Shown here one piece after another: positions 53,086 through 61,899 of a stretch of DNA of 64,000 nucleotides; the first letter of the stretch is position 1; each line of letters begins with the position of its first letter. The notes below the pieces were generated by a model. That model searched no databases, was not told where the DNA came from, and worked only from the letters and a program-made list of their open reading frames with translations. The stretch comes from a virus. The position numbers were made by a program, and so were the translations under genes. The stretch lies in the IMG/VR virus record IMGVR_UViG_3300033179_000001, positions 1 through 64,000 of that record; one strand, given 5' to 3'.

Positions 53086-54045
53086 CTAATATCGATGCAA
53101 GACACCATGAACGTAGCTGCAACTCATCGTAAGATTCCCAGCCCACGCATAGATGTCTGGCATCGGCCTCGTGGCTTCCGCAAAAAAACGATCCTGATCA
53201 ATCTTTTTCCAATTACGTCCAGCGTAGAACCTCCAACGGAAATATTTCGTATGAAGAAAATAAATCCTAGATGGGATAACCGAATGGTTCTCGATTATTG
53301 ATTGCAGGCTTGGATCAAGAACAACCGCCGTCTCACCAAAATCCAGAGATTCGAATCCCCAATCCGAATATTTGGATTTAAGCATACCATCAGGTAAAGA
53401 TTTCTTGAAATCGTTGAAATCATCCTTCCCCATCAGGATCAAATCCGGCCGCTCCAGTTTCGTAGAACCAACATATTCAACGATCGAAAGCTTTTCGATC
53501 ATCAGGCCCATCACATCGCTAAGTTTCTGGCCACTGCGATAACTTATCGAAAGATTACGCCAAAACCGATGTTGCTTCCGATCAATCCCACCCACCATAC
53601 CGATCGTCGGCGTGATGCTCACTAGGTCAGGCAAGGAGTTGATTGAATTTCTGCCGCCGCCCGACGAGATCGCCTGCGCTGTCATCTTAGCAGCCTCAGC
53701 AACCGGGTCGATTTCCTGTTTGTCTTCGTGGAAGGCCACGGCCGCTTGCTGGATCGGATATTCGGCAGCGGTGAATACCCCGCTAACTTCGTGATTTTGG
53801 AAAGCCTGATGTAGATTATTGGCTGGCTTCCATTGGCCCGGCTTTAGAACCTCATAGCCTCCATACCACGTAAATGGCGGAAATTGATTCGGCTCGACCA
53901 AAACTGGAAATGCAATCTCCTGAATGATGGTCCGACCGCCCTCGAATGATTTGATATTTCCAATCTCATTGAGCCGGCAAAGCAGTGGGTGGCTTGCGAT
54001 CGTCGCTTTTTGCAGTCGTTCAGAAATCTCGTCTGTGGCCGCCAT
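53086..54045 (-). CDS. diverged paralogue of the major capsid protein
   Basis: GNIKSFEGGRTIIQE, FTAAEYPIQQ, VGGIDR..H.FW.N, YAGRN, WAGNLTMSC align with the capsid at 39836. Confidence 0.85.
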   Translation of the reverse strand: MAATDEISERLQKATIASHPLLCRLNEIGNIKSFEGGRTIIQEIAFPVLVEPNQFPPFTWYGGYEVLKPGQWKPANNLHQAFQNHEVSGVFTAAEYPIQQAAVAFHEDKQEIDPVAEAAKMTAQAISSGGGRNSINSLPDLVSITPTIGMVGGIDRKQHRFWRNLSISYRSGQKLSDVMGLMIEKLSIVEYVGSTKLERPDLILMGKDDFNDFKKSLPDGMLKSKYSDWGFESLDFGETAVVLDPSLQSIIENHSVIPSRIYFLHTKYFRWRFYAGRNWKKIDQDRFFAEATRPMPDIYAWAGNLTMSCSYVHGVLHRY

Positions 54046-54093
54046 AGGCTTGGCCTCCGTGTTGTGAGCCGCATGATGCGTGCTCTGAGGCGA

Positions 54094-54122
54094 TGACTAC
54101 CACGGGAGGCGATGACGTGCAA
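54094..54122 (-). promoter_or_regulatory. putative promoter for capsid paralogue/terL, overlapped by an 11-bp direct repeat
   Basis: TTGCAC-N17-TAGTCA; GTCATCGCCTC occurs at 54087-54097 and 54106-54116. Confidence 0.45.
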
Positions 54123-54132
54123 TTTGGACAAT

Positions 54133-54167
54133 AAAAAGCCGCCCGCGTCATGACGACGGGGCGGCTT
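54133..54167 (-). terminator. intrinsic terminator ending the tRNA array
   Basis: AAGCCGCCC...GGGCGGCTT hairpin followed by a T run. Confidence 0.85.
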
Positions 54168-54172
54168 GAGAT

Positions 54173-54243
54173 TGGCACCGGTACAAGGATTTGAACCCTG
54201 CTTGCAGGATTTGGAGTTCTGCTAACGCCCAGCGTCTACCGGT
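54173..54243 (-). tRNA. trnW: tRNA-Trp(CCA), compact atypical fold
   Basis: ACCGGTA/TACCGGT acceptor, loop CTCCAAA, G73, CCA; tiny D arm. Confidence 0.8.
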
Positions 54244-54246
54244 AAT

Positions 54247-54323
54247 TGGTACTGCCTTTCTGATTTGAACAGAATCCCACCGATTCACAGTCGGCGTGCT
54301 CATTGCCATCGAGCATAGGCAGC
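54247..54323 (-). tRNA. trnH: tRNA-His(GTG), G1:U72 and A73
   Basis: GCCGA CTGTGAA TCGGT; CCA encoded. Confidence 0.88.
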
Positions 54324-54324
54324 A

Positions 54325-54395
54325 TGGTCCCGAAGGGCGGTGCCGACCCGCCCTGACAGCCGTATGAAAGCCGTTTCCTCGCCGGAGGCATCGGG
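54325..54395 (-). tRNA. tRNA with CAT anticodon, compact atypical fold
   Basis: ACGGCT TTCATAC GGCTGT; CCA; T loop GTCGGCA. Confidence 0.65.
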
Positions 54396-54396
54396 A

Positions 54397-54470
54397 TGGC
54401 AGCCGGTGTCTGAATCGAACAGACGTTCAGGCATTCAAAGTGCCTTCTCTTGCCACTAAAGGAACCGGCC
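54397..54470 (-). tRNA. trnQ: tRNA-Gln(TTG)
   Basis: AGGCA CTTTGAA TGCCT; G73; CCA. Confidence 0.88.
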
Positions 54471-54475
54471 ACAAT

Positions 54476-54550
54476 TGGTAGAGCCTAGCGGTTTCGATCC
54501 GCTTCCTCCCGGGTGAAGGCCGGGGATTCTAGCCAGTAAACTAAGGCTCC
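54476..54550 (-). tRNA. trnE: tRNA-Glu(TTC), C33
   Basis: CCCGG CCTTCAC CCGGG; CCA. Confidence 0.85.
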
Positions 54551-54551
54551 A

Positions 54552-54625
54552 TGGTGCGGGCTGCGGGAATCGAACCCGCGACATCGCGTTGGAAGCGCGA
54601 TATTTTACCATTAAACTAAGCACGC
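54552..54625 (-). tRNA. trnG: tRNA-Gly(TCC)
   Basis: TCGCG CTTCCAA CGCGA; CCA. Confidence 0.9.
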
Positions 54626-54629
54626 GAAT

Positions 54630-54715
54630 TGGCGGTGAACTGAGAGCACGATTCTCACACCTTACGGTGCCCTTCGTTTAGCAAACGAGGACGGGTCCCA
54701 CCCGCTTAGTTCACC
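54630..54715 (-). tRNA. trnS: tRNA-Ser(GCT)
   Basis: Loop TTGCTAA, long variable arm, G73, CCA. Confidence 0.85.
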
Positions 54716-54720
54716 ATAAA

Positions 54721-54797
54721 TGGTCTTGCCGGGACGACTCGAACGCCCACGATTTCGCTTAGGAGGCGAATGCTCTGTCCAGTTGAGCTACGGCAAG
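54721..54797 (-). tRNA. trnR: tRNA-Arg(CCT)
   Basis: TTCGC CTCCTAA GCGAA; CCA. Confidence 0.9.
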
Positions 54798-54799
54798 AT

Positions 54800-54876
54800 T
54801 GGCGCTTCCGAGAGGATTCGAACCCCTGGCGGCCCGAGGTAGAAACTCGGCGCTCTGTCCACTGAGCTACGGAAGC
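54800..54876 (-). tRNA. trnR: tRNA-Arg(TCT)
   Basis: CCGAG TTTCTAC CTCGG; CCA. Confidence 0.9.
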
Positions 54877-54879
54877 AAT

Positions 54880-54954
54880 TGGAAGCGTGATCGGGAGTTG
54901 AACCCGATTACAACAGTTTTGCAGACTGCGACCTATCCGACCGGTCCTCACGCC
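54880..54954 (-). tRNA. trnC: tRNA-Cys(GCA)
   Basis: GCAGT CTGCAAA ACTGT; U73; CCA. Confidence 0.87.
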
Positions 54955-54958
54955 ATAT

Positions 54959-55032
54959 TGGCACCCCTTGACGGTGTCGAGCCGCCGTTTCTGCGTTCAG
55001 AGCGCAGTGTCTTGCCGTTGGACGAAAGGGGC
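54959..55032 (-). tRNA. trnQ: tRNA-Gln(CTG)
   Basis: CTGCG CTCTGAA CGCAG; G73; CCA. Confidence 0.88.
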
Positions 55033-55036
55033 AAAT

Positions 55037-55110
55037 TGGTCAGGGTGGGAGGAGTTGAACCTCCACTGGCAGCGTCCGAGGCCGCCCGACTTCCGCAATC
55101 TTTCACCCTG
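55037..55110 (-). tRNA. trnP: tRNA-Pro(CGG)
   Basis: GCGGC CTCGGAC GCTGC; C1-G72, A73. Confidence 0.83.
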
Positions 55111-55111
55111 A

Positions 55112-55187
55112 TGGCGATCCCACGAGGAGTCGAACCTCGATCTCCCAGTTTCGTAGACTGGCACTCTGTCCATTGAGCTATGGGACC
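55112..55187 (-). tRNA. trnR: tRNA-Arg(ACG)
   Basis: CCAGT CTACGAA ACTGG; CCA. Confidence 0.9.
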
Positions 55188-55191
55188 GGGT

Positions 55192-55266
55192 TGGACCTGC
55201 TGACGGGTGCTGACCCCGTGTTTCCACCTTGAGAGGGTGGCGAACTGTCCGTTATTCGACAGCAGG
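55192..55266 (-). tRNA. trnE: tRNA-Glu(CTC)
   Basis: CCACC CTCTCAA GGTGG; atypical T loop GTCAGCA. Confidence 0.82.
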
Positions 55267-55276
55267 ATGATAGACT

Positions 55277-55353
55277 TTGCTCGCATCGCAGGACTCGAAC
55301 CTGCCACGGTCTGGTTAACAGCCAGATTCACACACCCGGTGCGATTGATGCGA
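55277..55353 (-). tRNA. trnN: tRNA-Asn(GTT), ends CAA instead of CCA
   Basis: TCTGG CTGTTAA CCAGA; U1-A72, G73. Confidence 0.85.
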
Positions 55354-55377
55354 GCAAAATCTAACAGATCAAGAAAA

Positions 55378-55452
55378 TGGTGGACCTCCACGGTTACGAT
55401 CCGTGTCCTTCGGTTTGCAGGACCGACGTGCTCCCATTATCACTAGAGGCCC
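55378..55452 (-). tRNA. trnA: tRNA-Ala(TGC), C33
   Basis: G3:U70; TCGGT CCTGCAA ACCGA. Confidence 0.88.
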
Positions 55453-55459
55453 GGGAGAA

Positions 55460-55535
55460 TGGTGCCCTGCGCTGGTTTCGATCCAGCCTCATCGGTTCTT
55501 CAAACCGAGGCAATCACCAGATTTGCTAACAGGGC
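55460..55535 (-). tRNA. trnF: tRNA-Phe(GAA)
   Basis: TCGGT TTGAAGA ACCGA; CCA. Confidence 0.88.
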
Positions 55536-55539
55536 GAAT

Positions 55540-55613
55540 TGGCGCGGGCAGGCAGAATCGAACTGCCGCTCGGACGTTGGCAACGTCCAGGTCTACCACT
55601 AACCTATGCACGC
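55540..55613 (-). tRNA. trnG: tRNA-Gly(GCC)
   Basis: GGACG TTGCCAA CGTCC; CCA. Confidence 0.88.
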
Positions 55614-55618
55614 ATATT

Positions 55619-55705
55619 TGGTGCCTCGTGAGGGTAACGATCCCCCGAGTCTCCGAAGAGTACAGTTTTACAGACTGAGCGGCCTCCTTAACCGCATACC
55701 GAGGC
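55619..55705 (-). tRNA. trnY: tRNA-Tyr(GTA)
   Basis: Loop CTGTAAA, long variable arm, A73, CCA. Confidence 0.85.
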
Positions 55706-55711
55706 AAATTT

Positions 55712-55786
55712 TGGTTGCAGGCCCAGAACTCGAATCTGGCTGTAACGGCTTATGAGGCCGAACGGGTCACCCGACCTTTACCTGCT
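55712..55786 (-). tRNA. tRNA-Met(CAT), initiator-like
   Basis: Loop CTCATAA; A1xA72 mismatch, G2-C71, C3-G70, A73. Confidence 0.75.
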
Positions 55787-55797
55787 TCAAAGGAAAT

Positions 55798-55886
55798 TGG
55801 CGGAGGGCGGGTAGATTCGAACTCCATGCCTTTCGGCACCCTCGGTTTTCAGGACCGCGACAGAACCCCGTCTGCTTCTGCCCTCC
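55798..55886 (-). tRNA. trnS: tRNA-Ser(TGA), C33
   Basis: Loop CCTGAAA, long variable arm, G73. Confidence 0.85.
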
Positions 55887-55892
55887 GTAACT

Positions 55893-55968
55893 TGGCGATC
55901 CCTCGGTGATTCGAACACCGTATTTCGGCTTTCGGAGAGCCGCGTCTTGTCCATCCGACTCAGGGATC
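55893..55968 (-). tRNA. trnR: tRNA-Arg(CCG)
   Basis: CGGCT CTCCGAA AGCCG; CCA. Confidence 0.87.
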
Positions 55969-56317
55969 ATTTCTTCTTTTCGCCCGGAAAATACTTCGCC
56001 ATCGTCACCTTTTGGATAAGGCTATCGTCGGCGACAATCCCGGGCTTAGTCAGCGTCTTGTCGTCCAATGCCTGTTCAAGCGCTAGATAGGCATTGCCCA
56101 AATCAGGTGACGACGGATTGACGAACAGCACATCAAGATCGATTTCGTGCTGTATCGGCATCTTATTCCCGACGCTAGTATGCCGCACCGCCTCAAATAT
56201 CACCTTCCGATAGGCTTGGATTGTTCTGACATGCATCCTCCGGTGAGGACTGTCATGTATCCAAAGCTGAAGCAATGGCGGCTCATAGAGCGCGTGGTAC
56301 TTGGCAATCACCTTCAT
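55967..56317 (-). CDS. RusA-like Holliday junction resolvase fold protein inside the tRNA array
   Basis: PDLGNAYLALEQAL...GIVADDSLI; ATG directly follows a tRNA CCA. Confidence 0.7.
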   Translation of the reverse strand: MKVIAKYHALYEPPLLQLWIHDSPHRRMHVRTIQAYRKVIFEAVRHTSVGNKMPIQHEIDLDVLFVNPSSPDLGNAYLALEQALDDKTLTKPGIVADDSLIQKVTMAKYFPGEKKK

Positions 56318-56392
56318 TGGTACGCCTCCCCCGATTCGAACGGGGATCAAAATTCTTATGAGGAATCGGCTCTACCGTTAAGCTAGAGGCGC
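56318..56392 (-). tRNA. tRNA-Met/Ile2(CAT)
   Basis: GATTC CTCATAA GAATT; CCA. Confidence 0.88.
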
Positions 56393-56396
56393 AAAT

Positions 56397-56493
56397 TGGT
56401 GGCGGTCACTGCCTCACGGCCTACCGCCGCTGAACACCGACCGTCGCCGGATTCAGGTATACGGCGCATGCCACCGTCGTGGCGGGCCGTAGC
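56397..56493 (-). ncRNA. unidentified structured RNA ending in ACCA
   Basis: Fills one tRNA-sized slot; GGCGGT/ACCGCC stem then ACCA; GNRA hairpin; CTGAA/TTCAG stem; no T or anticodon arm. Confidence 0.45.
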
Positions 56494-56568
56494 TGGTCTG
56501 AGTAGCAGGACTTGAACCTGCAGCCCCCGCGCCCCAAACGCGGTGCTCTACCATTGAGCTACACTCAG
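56494..56568 (-). tRNA. trnP: tRNA-Pro(TGG)
   Basis: CCGCG TTTGGGG CGCGG; C1-G72. Confidence 0.92.
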
Positions 56569-56573
56569 TTGAA

Positions 56574-56647
56574 TGGCGACCCCACGGGGTTACGATCCCC
56601 GGTTCTCCGCTCGACAGGCGGGCATTCTACCATTGAATTATGGGGCC
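56574..56647 (-). tRNA. trnD: tRNA-Asp(GTC)
   Basis: Loop CTGTCGA; G73; CCA. Confidence 0.88.
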
Positions 56648-56649
56648 AT

Positions 56650-56723
56650 TGGCGAACCACCACGGTAACCATCCGTGTTCCCCGGGTTAAGAGGCCGGTG
56701 CATCAGCTTAATGCTTGTGGTCC
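56650..56723 (-). tRNA. trnK: tRNA-Lys(CTT)
   Basis: Loop CTCTTAA; atypical T loop ATGGTTA. Confidence 0.8.
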
Positions 56724-56724
56724 G

Positions 56725-56799
56725 TGGAGGACCATCTCGGTTTCGATCCGAGTCCTCAACGTTTAAAAGACGTGCGCCTTCCCATCCGGCTCATGGTCC
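56725..56799 (-). tRNA. trnK: tRNA-Lys(TTT)
   Basis: Loop CTTTTAA; CCA. Confidence 0.85.
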
Positions 56800-56810
56800 T
56801 AGTTAGGGAT

Positions 56811-56933
56811 TCATGACCCAGGTTTGATTCGCTTCTCTTCGCACACGACGATCTGACCCGTATCCGGGAAGTGGTGGACCCAGTTACGGCGCATGCGCAC
56901 CGGAACAAGGCCGAATTGGCAGTGAATGCACAT
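56811..56933 (-). CDS. 40-aa Cys/His peptide inside the tRNA array
   Basis: AAAGGA SD then MCIHCQFGLVPVRMRRNWVHHFPDTGQIVVCEEKRIKPGS. Confidence 0.55.
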   Translation of the reverse strand: MCIHCQFGLVPVRMRRNWVHHFPDTGQIVVCEEKRIKPGS

Positions 56934-56948
56934 GCTCTTTCCTTTGAA

Positions 56949-57023
56949 TGGTAGTCCCTGCCGGTTTCGATCCGACTTTCCACGCTTATCGGGCGTGTGC
57001 CTTAGCCACTAGACGAAGGGACC
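56949..57023 (-). tRNA. trnI: tRNA-Ile(GAT), C33
   Basis: CACGC CCGATAA GCGTG; CCA. Confidence 0.87.
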
Positions 57024-57027
57024 GTGT

Positions 57028-57117
57028 GCTCGGGCTGGGGGTCAGTTATTCCCCGGCTATGACCCCTCCGCGCCTCGCGGACAAGTGCCGGGACAGATGC
57101 TGTCTGCACACCCGAGC
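57028..57117 (-). ncRNA. unidentified four-way-junction RNA
   Basis: GCTCGGGT/GCCCGAGC closing stem with three internal arms. Confidence 0.5.
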
Positions 57118-57141
57118 GGTGACAGCCCACGCCTCTTGAAA

Positions 57142-57216
57142 TGGTACTCCGTCAGTGGATCGAACACTGTCTTGTCGGTGTGTAAAACCGATGCCTTCCC
57201 ATTTGGCGAACGGAGC
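57142..57216 (-). tRNA. trnV: tRNA-Val(TAC)
   Basis: TCGGT TTTACAC ACCGA; CCA. Confidence 0.88.
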
Positions 57217-57217
57217 A

Positions 57218-57293
57218 TGGTGTGAGTGTCGGGAGTTGAACCCGAAAGACATGGGGTTTAAGCCCTGCCGCGTTTCCGCTTCGCCACACTCAC
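57218..57293 (-). tRNA. trnL: tRNA-Leu(TAA), short variable region
   Basis: Loop CTTAAAC; A73; 76 nt. Confidence 0.78.
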
Positions 57294-57299
57294 ATAAAT

Positions 57300-57375
57300 T
57301 GGTGCACGTAGGGTGATTCGAACACCCACTGAACGGGTTTTGAAGCCGCTGTCTCTGCCGTTGGACTATACGTGC
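57300..57375 (-). tRNA. trnL: tRNA-Leu(CAA), short variable region
   Basis: Loop TTCAAAA; A73; 76 nt. Confidence 0.82.
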
Positions 57376-57379
57376 AAAT

Positions 57380-57462
57380 TGGTACCCCCGGGGAGACTTG
57401 AACTCCCAATCCTTTCGGCGCCAGTTTCTAAGACTGGTGTGTATGCATTCCACCACGGGGGC
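57380..57462 (-). tRNA. trnL: tRNA-Leu(TAG)
   Basis: CCAGT CTTAGAA ACTGG; long variable arm. Confidence 0.9.
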
Positions 57463-57463
57463 A

Positions 57464-57537
57464 TGGTGCTCTCTGATGGTTACGATCCATCGTCTGATCC
57501 TTACCGGGGATCTATTCTTCCATTGAACTAAGAGAGC
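57464..57537 (-). tRNA. trnT: tRNA-Thr(GGT), C33
   Basis: GATCC CCGGTAA GGATC; CCA. Confidence 0.87.
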
Positions 57538-57544
57538 GATAGGC

Positions 57545-57615
57545 GGGAGCGTCCTAGCCGCTAGACGACCGTAGATGATCAGTCCACGAGGCAGAATCGA
57601 ACTGCCGTTTCTCCC
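57545..57615 (-). ncRNA. circularly permuted tRNA-like RNA (3' half precedes 5' half)
   Basis: GGGAG-AAAC-GGCAG TTCGATT CTGCC-TCGTGGA-ctgatca-TCTACGG-TC-GTCT AGCGGCTA GGAC-G-CTCCC; all four stems pair. Confidence 0.8.
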
Positions 57616-57619
57616 TGAG

Positions 57620-57693
57620 TGGAGCCCTAGCCGGGATTCGAAACCGGCTCTCCCGCTTACAAGGCGGGTGCATCGCCACAATGCTTCAAGGGC
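57620..57693 (-). tRNA. trnT: tRNA-Thr(TGT)
   Basis: CCCGC CTTGTAA GCGGG; CCA. Confidence 0.88.
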
Positions 57694-57705
57694 AAATGTT
57701 TTCTG

Positions 57706-57777
57706 TTCTGGCTCGGTGAATCGAACACCGGACATCCGACTTACGAAATCGGCGGTCTGCCACTGACCTAAGCCAGA
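57706..57777 (-). tRNA. trnT: tRNA-Thr(CGT), no encoded CCA
   Basis: CCGAT TTCGTAA GTCGG; U1-A72; flanks GTTTTCTG/CAGAAAAC pair. Confidence 0.82.
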
Positions 57778-57789
57778 TCAGAAAACAAA

Positions 57790-58095
57790 AAGAACGGACG
57801 GCGCGCAGCTAAGCCGCTTTTGCCCGTGGACTGCTATAGGTCGTCCCATTCTCACGGGGCCTACACGGCGCGTCCAGAAACACACTTCAGGCAGGGAGGG
57901 TTTTATCGGGTGGTTCTCTCTGCCTTTTCCGGCAGAGGGTTCGGACCCTTGGCCGGTTATTCTTGTATTCTGCGCCCTTCGGGCTGCAGGGAGACGAGGC
58001 CAATAAAGGCGCACGTATCCGACCACCGATTACTCGGTGCTTTGGTCATTGGATATGTGCCTAAATGGTGCATCTTCGTCTTTCAGAGACACTCG
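57790..58095 (-). ncRNA. about 300-nt highly structured leader / candidate ncRNA
   Basis: Many nested stems (GCACATATCC/GGATACGTGC, ACCGA-GTAA-TCGGT, TTGGCC/GGCCAA, CTCTGCC/GGCAGAG); no credible ORF. Confidence 0.55.
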
Positions 58096-61748: not shown

Positions 61749-61824
61749 TGGCTCCTCGGGCAGGACTTGAACCTGCGACCCGCCGCTTTAGAGACGGCTG
61801 CTCTAACCGCTTAGCTATGGGGGC
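61749..61824 (-). tRNA. CUA-anticodon tRNA with mispaired acceptor stem (possible pseudo-tRNA)
   Basis: GCCGT CTCTAAA GCGGC; intact D and T arms and CCA; acceptor GCCCCCA/CCGAGGA pairs only 3 of 7. Confidence 0.7.
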
Positions 61825-61825
61825 A

Positions 61826-61899
61826 TGGTGGGTCCGATGGGCTTTTCACCCACGTCTCTCTGCTTTAGAGGCAGATGCTCTCACTTGAGCTACAGACCC
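61826..61899 (-). tRNA. amber suppressor tRNA (CUA)
   Basis: GGGTCTG/CGGACCC acceptor, TCTGC CTCTAAA GCAGA, A73, CCA; atypical T loop TGAAAAG. Confidence 0.85.

What the first reader, a model, noticed from the sequence alone, without database searches (positions are those of the whole stretch)
57538..57619. Circularly permuted tRNA-like gene in a phage tRNA array
Seen: the order is 3' anticodon strand (GGGAG), variable loop, T arm with TTCGA, 3' acceptor strand, 7-nt linker, 5' acceptor strand, D arm with GG, 5' anticodon strand (CTCCC). All stems pair, the break lies in the anticodon loop, and the acceptor end is closed by a loop. It occupies its own slot between two Thr tRNAs, so normal processing would release it. 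Known: permuted tRNAs occur in some algae and Thermofilum; bacterial YrlA Y RNAs have this T-acceptor-D topology but carry a longer Ro60-binding stem, which is not visible here. Inference: either a minimal Y-RNA-like mimic (decoy for tRNA-targeting defence or modification enzymes) or a true permuted tRNA needing ligation. The anticodon cannot be assigned; the body looks Glu/Gln-like.
Basis: partly seen in the sequence, partly recalled or inferred. Interest (0 to 1): 0.82.

Follow-up and report, generated by a model that had tools for sequence, protein, structure and literature searches.

The report
Bare tRNA-Glu mimic in phage array
A soil phage's tRNA gene cluster holds a small gene for a back-to-front, sealed copy of a glutamate-tRNA body that cannot decode; it is a stripped-down form of the tRNA look-alike RNAs known as Y RNA-like RNAs.

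Summary
On the minus strand, window 57538-57619 folds as a circularly permuted cloverleaf that exactly fills the slot between tRNA-Thr(TGT) and tRNA-Thr(GGT). It is not an assembly artefact: contigs from three other samples carry it unchanged. It is not a scar: two other contigs hold an orthologue in the same Thr-Thr-[x]-Thr-Leu-Leu slot, with different T and acceptor stems that still pair fully. A model built from 14 other contigs scores it 71 bits (E 5e-19).

It belongs to a phage family of permuted tRNA-Glu-type modules (T arm, hairpin-closed acceptor, Glu-type D arm, AAAC variable loop). This family has two forms:
- Handle form: a short closing stem inside a long outer helix. 11 of 14 such records encode a TROVE/Ro60 protein.
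- Bare form: an exact 5-bp closing stem, often wedged between tRNAs. 0 of 12 such records encode one. The window is this form.

I found no anticodon loop, conserved tails, CCA in the linker, ligase, RtcB or Ro60, so a ligation-dependent decoding tRNA is unlikely. Best reading: a Ro60-independent, non-decoding tRNA-Glu body mimic released by processing of the neighbouring tRNAs. Its partner is unknown.

Earlier notes of this scan reported handle-type relatives on other DNA. I found no note or paper on the bare array form.

The parts
57616..57619 (-). 5' spacer CUCA, directly after the CCA of tRNA-Thr(TGT)
   Evidence: The length is typical of spacers in this array. L110 has AGCA here.
57611..57615 (-). 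closing stem, 5' strand GGGAG (equivalent to the 3' strand of an anticodon stem)
   Evidence: Pairs with 57545-57549. The same letters occur in orthologues L100 and L110. This stem covaries across the family.
57607..57610 (-). variable loop AAAC (4 nt, so no residue 47; A46, C48)
   Evidence: Read directly from the sequence. The tRNA-Glu determinants are listed in PMC9976931.
57590..57606 (-). T arm GGCAG-UUCGAUU-CUGCC
   Evidence: Identical in 17 of 17 letters to the T arm of the array's tRNA-Gly(GCC). Two pairs are changed on both sides against L110 and against L100.
57569..57589 (-). acceptor-type stem of 7 bp (UCGUGGA / UCUACGG) closed by the loop CUGAUCA
   Evidence: All 7 pairs are kept in L110 and L100, with 4 and 5 pairs changed on both sides.
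57567..57568 (-). U8 C9 connector
   Evidence: Read directly from the sequence; aligned.
57551..57566 (-). D arm of bacterial tRNA-Glu type, GUCU-AGCGGCUA-GGAC (U11-A24, U13.G22, G18 G19)
57550..57550 (-). G26 connector
   Evidence: It was fixed by the patterns, but left free.
57545..57549 (-). closing stem, 3' strand CUCCC
57538..57544 (-). 3' spacer GCCUAUC, ending at base +1 of tRNA-Thr(GGT)
   Evidence: L110 has GCCUACAU here.
57620..57693 (-). upstream neighbour tRNA-Thr(TGT) with encoded CCA
57464..57537 (-). downstream neighbour tRNA-Thr(GGT). Its RNase P site would define the element's 3' end.
   Evidence: The RNase P step is inferred.

Best explanation
The element is a gene for a small, structurally constrained RNA. 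It is a 'bare' circularly permuted tRNA-Glu body: T arm, hairpin-sealed acceptor stem, Glu-type D arm, 4-nt variable loop, and a 5-bp closing stem in place of the anticodon arm.

Shown here:
- the fold
- its conservation in orthologous slots of other phage tRNA arrays
- its membership in a wider phage family of such modules
- the absence of a Ro60/TROVE gene wherever the module is bare

Inferred:
- It is transcribed with the tRNA array.
- Its 3' end is made by RNase P cutting at tRNA-Thr(GGT) +1.
- Its 5' end is made by an endonucleolytic cut after the CCA of tRNA-Thr(TGT).
- It folds into the tRNA L-shape.
- With no anticodon loop and no free CCA end, it neither decodes nor is charged.
- It acts by occupying a host protein that reads the core and elbow of tRNA-Glu. 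Candidates are GluRS, glutamyl-tRNA reductase, elbow-binding modification enzymes, or a tRNA-directed defence nuclease. It would work as a decoy or stabiliser, without Ro60.
- RNase P may also cut inside the acceptor loop, as reported for M. smegmatis YrlA, giving a two-piece form.

The confidence given (0.6) is for the whole statement. I rate the shown part (a conserved, non-decoding, Ro60-independent permuted tRNA-Glu-like RNA gene) at about 0.8. I rate the specific mode of action (titrating a host tRNA-Glu-binding factor) at about 0.35.
For: Real DNA: contigs of three other samples hold 57300-57847, 57300-57900, and 57300-57554 plus 57540-57711 with 0 differences.

Orthologues in the same slot:
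- L100 and L110 have Thr(CGT)-Thr(TGT)-[element]-Thr(GGT)-Leu-Leu.
- The whole array of L110's phage is syntenic with the window's.
- Core identity between window and L110 is 0.74, inside the range 0.60-0.82 of 16 orthologous tRNAs.
- All T-stem and acceptor pairs are kept. Against L110, 2 of 5 T pairs and 4 of 7 acceptor pairs are changed on both sides. Against L100 the counts are 2 of 5 and 5 of 7.

Family:
- Model R1, built from 14 other contigs, scores the element 71.2 bits, E 5e-19.
- Among 25 distinct permuted hits chosen by loop sequence only, the T stem is 5/5 in 25. The acceptor hairpin is at least 6 bp with at most 1 mismatch in 23. The closing stem is 5/5 in 11, against 1.8% in cross-pairing controls.

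Bare form in arrays: the window, L110, L113/L130, L125, L137, L138 and L109 are all flanked on both sides by tRNAs at 1-15 nt.

Ro60 split: TROVE is found in 0 of 12 records with a 5/5 closing stem and in 11 of 14 with a short closing stem and long outer helix (Fisher p = 4.9e-5). The window's complete genome has none.

tRNA-Glu determinants U11-A24, U13-G22:A46 and missing residue 47 are present (direct reading; PMC9976931 passage).

Precedents (passages read):
- The YrlA tRNA-like module has no CCA and no anticodon loop, and has an unknown effector at its D and T stems (10.1101/312249).
- M. smegmatis YrlA, with a 7-bp acceptor stem, is cut by RNase P and receives CCA (PMC4201824).
Against: - No transcript, end-mapping or binding data exist. 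No RNA run was listed.
- The partner is unknown. A tblastn of 374 window ORFs against four complete bare-module phages found no protein shared with two or more of them.
- The host is unknown, so a host Ro60 cannot be excluded.
- The search patterns fixed the D arm, and mostly also the AAAC loop and T loop. Their invariance in my alignments therefore says nothing.
- 13 of the 15 rows of alignment A2 had been pre-filtered for pairing, so the figures are inflated.
- Model R1 scores junctions of tandem tRNA-Glu genes as high as true members (74 and 71 bits). Membership therefore rests on the flanks as well.
- The single-sequence folding z-score is -0.70.
- Release of the 5' end needs an endonuclease cut in a 4-nt spacer. 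That is assumed, not shown.
- Several family records are incomplete genomes.
Confidence: 0.6

Rival explanations
1. It is a Y RNA after all: the bare module binds a host-encoded Ro60/Rsr and works as in YrlA, with the 5-bp stem and tails serving as the Ro60 site.
For: - It has the same module as the handle-type RNAs found in TROVE-encoding phages.
- Orthologue L100 carries extra hairpins and an outer stem around the same core.
- The host is unknown.
Against: - There is no GNCGAAN0-1G motif and no long stem. The flanks are tRNAs.
- TROVE is found in 0 of 12 bare-type records, four of them rated 100% complete, against 11 of 14 handle-type records.
- RF02553 does not match the element.
Confidence: 0.12
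2. It is a cis-acting part of the polycistronic tRNA precursor. It would be a pseudo-tRNA that recruits RNase P or organises folding and processing of its neighbours, with no function of its own once released.
For: - It always lies inside arrays, with tRNA-like spacing.
- A 7-bp acceptor stem plus T arm is the RNase P recognition unit. M. smegmatis YrlA is cut by RNase P (PMC4201824).
Against: - The same module also occurs as a stand-alone gene away from tRNAs: L124, L132, L139, L104.
- The specific tRNA-Glu D arm would not be needed for RNase P.
- Neighbouring tRNAs differ between arrays.
Confidence: 0.12
3. It is a non-functional scar: the junction of two tandem tRNA-Glu genes whose outer halves were deleted.
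For: - Junctions of tandem tRNA-Glu genes look the same and score the same with R1.
- The acceptor loops of the orthologues end in CCA or UCA: GCCA in L100, GUCA in L110..UCA here. This fits an origin from a head-to-tail tRNA junction.
Against: - The orthologues have diverged as much as real tRNAs, yet keep every pair.
- The bare form recurs in at least 7 arrays of phages that share almost no proteins.
- No leftover tRNA-Glu halves flank it.
- The sequence is unchanged in three other samples.
Confidence: 0.07
4. It is a true circularly permuted tRNA gene. Its ends would be ligated into an anticodon loop and the acceptor loop opened and CCA-tailed, giving a decoding tRNA.
For: - The topology matches that of permuted tRNA genes (recalled: red alga Cyanidioschyzon).
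- L100's loop reads G-CCA.
Against: - Joined tails would give an 11-nt loop here, 12 in L110 and far more in L100, with no conserved letters.
- ARAGORN finds no tRNA in the re-permuted form at default settings.
- Other members close the acceptor stem with UUCG, GAAA or GCAA-type loops.
- No RtcB, Rnl or CCA-adding enzyme was found. The Rnl1 search had no positive control.
Confidence: 0.04

Closest known systems
YrlA (Y RNA-like A), Rfam RF02553; Chen et al. 2014 (PMC4201824, passages read); Wang et al. 2018 preprint (10.1101/312249, passages read)
   Same: - The order is V region, T arm, closed acceptor stem-loop, D arm, with the RNA ends in the stem that replaces the anticodon arm.
- The tRNA tertiary-contact nucleotides are present.
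- There is no free CCA and no anticodon loop.
- It occurs in phages.
   Different: - There is no Ro60-binding module (GNCGAAN0-1G motif or long stem).
- There is no TROVE gene in the genome.
- RF02553 gives no match.
- The D arm is of tRNA-Glu type, UCGUCUAG.GG..AGGAC. The Rfam consensus has GUAGCUCA..GGUAGAGC.
- It is embedded as a slot in a tRNA array, not placed beside rsr.
Handle-type phage RNAs with the same Glu-type module
   Same: They share the same module: AAAC loop, T arm, hairpin-closed acceptor stem and Glu-type D arm. All score 52-73 bits with R1.
   Different: - They have only 2-4 bp next to the module, followed by a long outer helix of 6-12 bp and motifs such as TTATC, TACTTC or ACAGCAA.
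- 11 of 14 such records encode TROVE.
- Some sit next to a weak RF02553 match.
Circularly permuted tRNA genes of the red alga Cyanidioschyzon merolae (recalled; not read here)
   Same: The 3' half lies upstream of the 5' half, with a linker across the acceptor ends.
   Different: Those genes restore a normal 7-nt anticodon loop by ligation and give decoding tRNAs. Here no loop can be formed and the tails are not conserved.
mascRNA, as described in PMC9976931 (passage read)
   Same: It is a tRNA-shaped RNA released by tRNA-processing enzymes. It has no conserved anticodon loop, is not aminoacylated, and acts by binding a synthetase.
   Different: It is mammalian, not permuted, has a free acceptor end, and is unrelated in sequence.
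b7a-tRNA (Band-7-associated tRNA-like RNA predicted by Burroughs and Aravind 2016, as cited in 10.1101/312249)
   Same: It is a tRNA-like RNA proposed to work without Ro60.
   Different: It is described as resembling an authentic tRNA and as linked to RtcB and Band-7 genes. The window's phage has no RtcB. Band-7 was not searched.

Membership tests
YrlA (RF02553) | Permuted tRNA-like module: V region, T arm, closed acceptor stem-loop, D arm | tested here: met
   RNAfold structure; tRNA tertiary-contact nucleotides read directly from the sequence; R1 alignment.
YrlA (RF02553) | Ro60-binding module: GNCGAAN0-1G motif near the 5' end and a long stem formed by the two ends (PMC4201824) | tested here: not met
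   There is no such motif in the 82 nt. The closing stem is 5 bp with 0 extra pairs. The flanks are tRNAs.
YrlA (RF02553) | Encoded within about 4 kb of a Ro60/TROVE gene on the same strand (PMC4201824) | tested here: not met
   PF05731 gave 0 matches and 0 candidates in the complete 84.7-kb genome. The control genomes were detected.
YrlA (RF02553) | Reaches the Rfam gathering score (69 bits) | tested here: not met
   No match at E<=10 over 9 kb or over 121 nt. No match at E<=0.001 in the whole genome.
Circularly permuted tRNA genes | 3' half, then a linker, then the 5' half, with the acceptor strands complementary | tested here: met
Circularly permuted tRNA genes | Joining the ends restores a 7-nt anticodon loop with a readable anticodon | tested here: not met
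   The joined loop would be 11 nt. ARAGORN finds nothing at default settings. The tails differ in the orthologues.
Circularly permuted tRNA genes | A ligation system is available (RtcB or Rnl-type ligase) | tested here: inconclusive
   None was found in the phage. The PF09511 search had no positive control, and host enzymes are unknown.
Circularly permuted tRNA genes | A mature, aminoacylated, CCA-ended product exists | not testable with these tools
   No RNA run was listed. The linker encodes no CCA.
Phage Glu-type permuted tRNA-like modules (family defined here, model R1) | Matches a covariance model built without the window's sequence | tested here: met
   71.2 bits, E 5e-19, over the full length 1-70.
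Phage Glu-type permuted tRNA-like modules (family defined here, model R1) | Not the junction of two complete tandem tRNA-Glu genes | tested here: met
   The flanks are tRNA-Thr genes. No upstream 5' half or downstream 3' half is present.
Bare (handle-less) subtype | Exact 5-bp closing stem, no outer helix, tRNAs within 15 nt on both sides, and no TROVE gene | tested here: met
   5/5 pairs with 0 extra; gaps of 4 and 7 nt; no TROVE. The same holds for L110, L113, L125, L137, L138 and L109.
tRNA-Glu (decoding tRNA) | D-helix determinants U11-A24, U13-G22:A46 and no residue 47 (PMC9976931) | tested here: met
   Read directly from the sequence of 57551-57566 and 57607-57610.
tRNA-Glu (decoding tRNA) | Anticodon loop with U34 U35 C36 A37 and a free acceptor end | tested here: not met
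   There is no anticodon loop, and the acceptor stem is closed by a 7-nt loop.

The most novel reading that the evidence does not exclude
Bare permuted tRNA-Glu bodies are a mobile class of phage tRNA mimics that does not depend on Ro60. They travel with whole tRNA arrays between unrelated phages. They work as anticodon-less, uncleavable stand-ins for host tRNA-Glu. They would titrate a host factor that docks on the canonical tRNA-Glu core, such as a tRNA-directed defence nuclease or toxin, or GluRS or GluTR. Meanwhile the phage's own decoding tRNA-Glu genes carry altered D arms. After an RNase P cut in the acceptor loop, the mimic may exist as a two-piece, CCA-tailed 'half-open tRNA'.
Probability: 0.25. 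Interest if true: 0.8.

Novelty: new variant of a known kind. Interest (0 to 1): 0.62.

Why it matters
Phage tRNA arrays are currently read as codon supply or as replacements for tRNAs destroyed by host defences. That reading comes from the search listing and abstracts of PMC10264068 and PMC11464382.

A conserved array member that has a tRNA-Glu body but no anticodon and no acceptor end cannot serve either purpose. It points to a third use, which is tRNA mimicry.

The result also separates the tRNA-like 'effector' module of Y RNA-like RNAs from Ro60. The same module occurs with a handle where a TROVE gene is present, and bare where none is. The unknown partner of that module has been an open question since the YrlA structure (10.1101/312249). 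This 71-nt natural minimal version makes it directly testable by pull-down.

For annotation, such elements are missed by ARAGORN and by Rfam, and they mimic tandem tRNA junctions in covariance searches.

Tried and rejected
- Re-permuting the element inside a script and running ARAGORN found no tRNA at default settings. Only a shifted, low-threshold call with a mispaired anticodon stem came back. I rejected this as evidence for a decoding tRNA.
- Rfam gave no match for the element.
- BLAST of the region against deposited phages gave only tRNA-Leu hits.
- Terminase relatives (31 loci) lack the array. The two proteins flanking the array gave no relatives in viral contigs.
- The genome-contig scan gave 16 pattern hits. 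None matches R1, so they are chance matches.
- Sequencing runs: no RNA holder was listed, so nothing can be said on expression. The laid contigs show no variation in the element, so they give no covariation.
- Alignment A3 was discarded because MAFFT broke the acceptor strand. A4 was used instead.
- The figures are not used as unbiased evidence, because 13 of 15 rows had passed a pairing filter.
- Partner search: tblastn of 374 window ORFs against four complete bare-module phages found nothing shared by two or more of them.
- The window's terminase was not found in five bare-module records. That answer has no positive control.
- A literature search for a tRNA-Glu-directed phage defence found none (listing and abstracts only).
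- Searches for prior description: 'YrlA'+'phage', 'permuted tRNA'+'bacteriophage', 'Y RNA'+'tRNA-like'+'bacteriophage'+'Ro60', 'tRNA-like'+'phage'+'tRNA gene cluster'+'closed acceptor'. I also read passages of PMC6409571 and PMC9569102. None describes a handle-less permuted tRNA-like gene in a phage tRNA array.
- PMC10870794 (a review of Ro60 and Y RNAs) is not held.
- The count of 6 'tandem/normal' hits is an upper bound. L126, L129 and L135 score 60-73 bits with R1 and may be members that ARAGORN mis-called.
Full report
WHAT IS THERE

The tRNA array of this window lies on the minus strand. ARAGORN tRNAs between 54173 and 57777, and Rfam adds more. The record is a complete 84,710-bp virus contig with direct terminal repeats.

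The element is the reverse complement of 57538-57619. It fills, to the base, the gap between the encoded CCA of tRNA-Thr(TGT) and base +1 of tRNA-Thr(GGT).

- a 5-nt strand GGGAG
- a 4-nt variable loop AAAC
- a canonical T arm
- a 7-bp acceptor-type stem closed by a 7-nt loop
- U8 C9
- a D arm of bacterial tRNA-Glu type
- G26
- the complementary strand CUCCC

RNAfold returns exactly this permuted cloverleaf as the minimum-energy fold. The z-score against shuffles is only -0.70. Neither ARAGORN nor Rfam reports anything here.

IS IT REAL DNA?

Logan contigs of runs from other samples and studies carry the element unchanged with both junctions:
- a 794-nt contig at depth 74 covers 57300-57847 with 0 differences
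- another contig covers all of 57300-57900 with 0 differences
- a third run covers it in two overlapping contigs with 0 differences

An assembly chimera is excluded. These contigs show no variation, so they say nothing on covariation. No RNA run was listed.

ORTHOLOGUES

Relatives found through the terminase lack the array. DNA patterns made of the loop sequences found two contigs with the same gene order, Thr(CGT)-Thr(TGT)-[element]-Thr(GGT)-Leu-Leu:
- metagenome contig L100
- L110, part of a 74-kb virus record rated 100% complete

The whole array of that second phage is syntenic with the window's, down to a small ORF embedded in it. The two phages otherwise share only a handful of proteins.

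L110 has the same bare form: a 69-nt core with spacers of 4 and 8 nt. L100 has the same core inside a 149-nt spacer with two extra hairpins and an outer stem. That spacer folds with z = -3.0.

Core identity between window and L110 is 0.74, within the 0.60-0.82 range of 16 orthologous tRNAs of the two arrays.

Every T-stem pair and acceptor pair is kept in all three. Against L110, 2 of 5 T pairs and 4 of 7 acceptor pairs are changed on both sides. Against L100 the counts are 2 of 5 and 5 of 7. This is how a constrained RNA gene behaves, not a decaying scar.

A WIDER FAMILY

First viral scan (T loop plus Glu-type D arm):
- It gave 67 hits. In 62 the D-arm half lies in a called tRNA-Glu, so these are ordinary tandem genes.
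- The other 5 are permuted, with a hairpin-closed acceptor stem.

Second viral scan (adding the AAAC loop):
- It gave 34 hits, of which at least 28 are permuted.
- These were chosen by loop sequence alone. Among the 25 distinct ones with full flanks, the T stem is 5/5 in all 25. There are 16 different stems, and cross-pairing controls reach 5/5 in 16.5%.
- The acceptor hairpin is at least 6 bp with at most 1 mismatch in 23 of 25.
- The 5 nt on either side of the module pair 5/5 in 11 of 25, against 1.8% in controls.

A 15-row alignment gives 96.8% paired cells and 16 of 21 pairs with changes on both sides. However, 13 of its rows had been filtered for pairing, so I do not lean on it.

Covariance model R1 was built from 14 contigs without the window.
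- It scores the window's element 71.2 bits, E 5e-19. The next best match in the window is 23.4 bits.
- The element is the only copy in the genome.
- Caveat: junctions of tandem tRNA-Glu genes score equally (74 and 71 bits). The flanks must be checked. Here they are tRNA-Thr genes.

TWO FORMS, SPLIT BY Ro60

| Form | Closing stem | Outer helix | Records with TROVE |
|---|---|---|---|
| Handle | 2-4 bp | 6-12 bp, with recurrent motifs TTATC, TACTTC, ACAGCAA | 11 of 14 |
| Bare | exactly 5 bp | none | 0 of 12 (four rated 100% complete) |

- Some handle-form RNAs sit in tandem with a weak match to Rfam YrlA.
- Bare-form RNAs often lie between tRNAs at 1-15 nt on both sides: the window, L110, L113/L130, L125, L137, L138, L109.
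- The TROVE (PF05731) search covered 27 records. One further record, whose element is cut at the locus end, had no match. Fisher p = 4.9e-5.
- The window's genome has no TROVE match.
- Five further records from the first scan had none either, but all are incomplete.

The module is therefore shared, but the bare form appears to work without a phage Ro60.

WHAT IT IS NOT

It is not a decoding permuted tRNA.
- The tails are 4+7 nt here, 4+8 in L110 and 32+49 in L100. Elsewhere they are 1+7, 1+11, 3+15 and 13+6, with no common letters.
- Joining them gives an 11-nt loop that ARAGORN rejects.
- The linker has no CCA, though nearly all tRNAs of the array encode it.
- Other members close the stem with tight loops such as UUCG, GAAA or GCAA-type.
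- The phage has no RtcB, no Rnl2-type ligase and no CCA-adding enzyme. The Rnl1 search was blank but had no control.

It is not a scar, for the reasons given under orthologues and family.

The loops of the three orthologues end in CCA or UCA. This fits an evolutionary origin from a head-to-tail tRNA-Glu junction. That is an inference about origin, not about present function.

HOW IT MOST LIKELY WORKS

The element carries the determinants that the review PMC9976931 (passage read) lists for the E. coli tRNA-Glu D helix: U11-A24, U13-G22 with A46, and no residue 47. It lacks the anticodon and acceptor determinants.

The phage's own decoding tRNA-Glu genes have different D arms (direct reading). 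The mimic keeps the canonical bacterial one.

For YrlA, the structure paper (10.1101/312249, passages read) states three things:
- The tRNA-like module has no CCA end and no anticodon loop.
- It keeps the tRNA tertiary contacts.
- It probably binds an unknown effector at the D and T stems.

Chen et al. (PMC4201824, passages read) show that M. smegmatis YrlA, with a 7-bp acceptor stem, is cut by RNase P and CCA-tailed.

I infer this sequence of events:
- The element is transcribed with the array.
- RNase P at Thr(GGT) makes its 3' end.
- An endonuclease cut after the CCA of Thr(TGT) makes its 5' end.
- It folds as an L-shape.
- It then occupies a host protein that reads the tRNA-Glu core, acting as a decoy or stabiliser, as reported for mascRNA and GlnRS.

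No protein shared among bare-module phages was found. This fits a host partner, but does not show one.

COMPARISON AND NOVELTY

The element works like the effector module of YrlA but fails three of YrlA's defining features: the Ro60 motif and stem, a neighbouring Ro60 gene, and the Rfam score. I therefore file it as a new variant, a handle-less, array-embedded, Glu-type module, not as a YrlA.

Earlier notes of this scan (unchecked AI notes) had reported handle-type permuted tRNA mimics in other phages and linked the handle to Ro60-like genes. My TROVE tally agrees with that link. It adds that the bare form lacks the Ro60 gene.

My paper searches found no description of the bare form. The supplementary tables of PMC4201824 could not be seen.

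LIMITS

- There are no expression, processing or binding data.
- The host is unknown.
- The search patterns fixed the D arm and the loops.
- Several records are fragments.
- The function is inferred.

Noticed in passing
window 57218-57293 (-): ARAGORN calls a tRNA with an 8-nt anticodon loop (anticodon given as 'taaa'). Rfam scores it 44 bits as a tRNA. It could be a four-base decoder, or a misdrawn Leu or Lys tRNA.
   Followed up: no
window 56648-56727, about 55619-55704, 54626-54720, 54324-54396 (all -): The 'gaps' of the array hold folded stretches with a 7-bp end stem followed by N-CCA. ARAGORN and Rfam miss them. One looks like tRNA-Lys(CTT) with an odd T loop, and one like a long-arm tRNA-Tyr(GTA). 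Rfam alone calls two more tRNAs at 55802-55886 and 56728-56799.
   Followed up: partly
window, tRNAs at 57464-57537, 56949-57023, 56728-56799, 56574-56647, 55460-55535, 55378-55452, 54476-54550 (-): Seven tRNAs have T loops AUCGAAA or AUCGUAA in place of UUCGAAU. Position 54 is A. In the AUCGUAA form position 58 is U, as if the 54-58 pair were swapped. The same is seen in the orthologous Thr(GGT) of L100 and L110.
   Followed up: no
window 55967-56350 (-); G006 55501-55827: A 127-aa ORF sits inside the tRNA array. It is conserved (48% identity over 111 aa) at the same place in the array of an otherwise unrelated phage. It has no Pfam match. By eye its C-terminal half recalls RusA-type resolvases; that resemblance is recalled, not tested.
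   Followed up: partly
window 53630-57955 equivalent; G006 53630-57955: The whole array of about 30 tRNAs is syntenic between two phages that share only about 9 of 374 ORFs at E<=1e-5. tRNA arrays seem to move as cassettes.
   Followed up: partly
window 57790-58095 (-); L100 about 330-676: The long non-coding leader ahead of the first tRNA has stretches that recur in L100 ahead of its Thr(CGT). I saw this by eye in the printout and did not align it.
   Followed up: no
window 61760-61817 and 61826-61899 (-): Two adjacent tRNA-like genes have a CUA (amber-reading) anticodon loop. One is full length and the other matches tRNA model positions 8-63 only.
   Followed up: no
L124 601-922, L132 6517-6677, L137 7524-7745, L116 1643-1814, L121 10403-10965: Several phage contigs carry two or three copies of the permuted module in tandem.
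   Followed up: no
L104 3640-3800 (-): This is a stand-alone copy of the module in a 4.1-kb metagenome contig. It is followed by a terminator-like hairpin, has no tRNA nearby, and its acceptor loop contains A-CCA.
   Followed up: partly
L103 373-444 and L089 2732-2780 (-): In these two members the D arm is followed by a complete anticodon-arm-like hairpin, so the permutation point seems to lie in the variable region.
   Followed up: no
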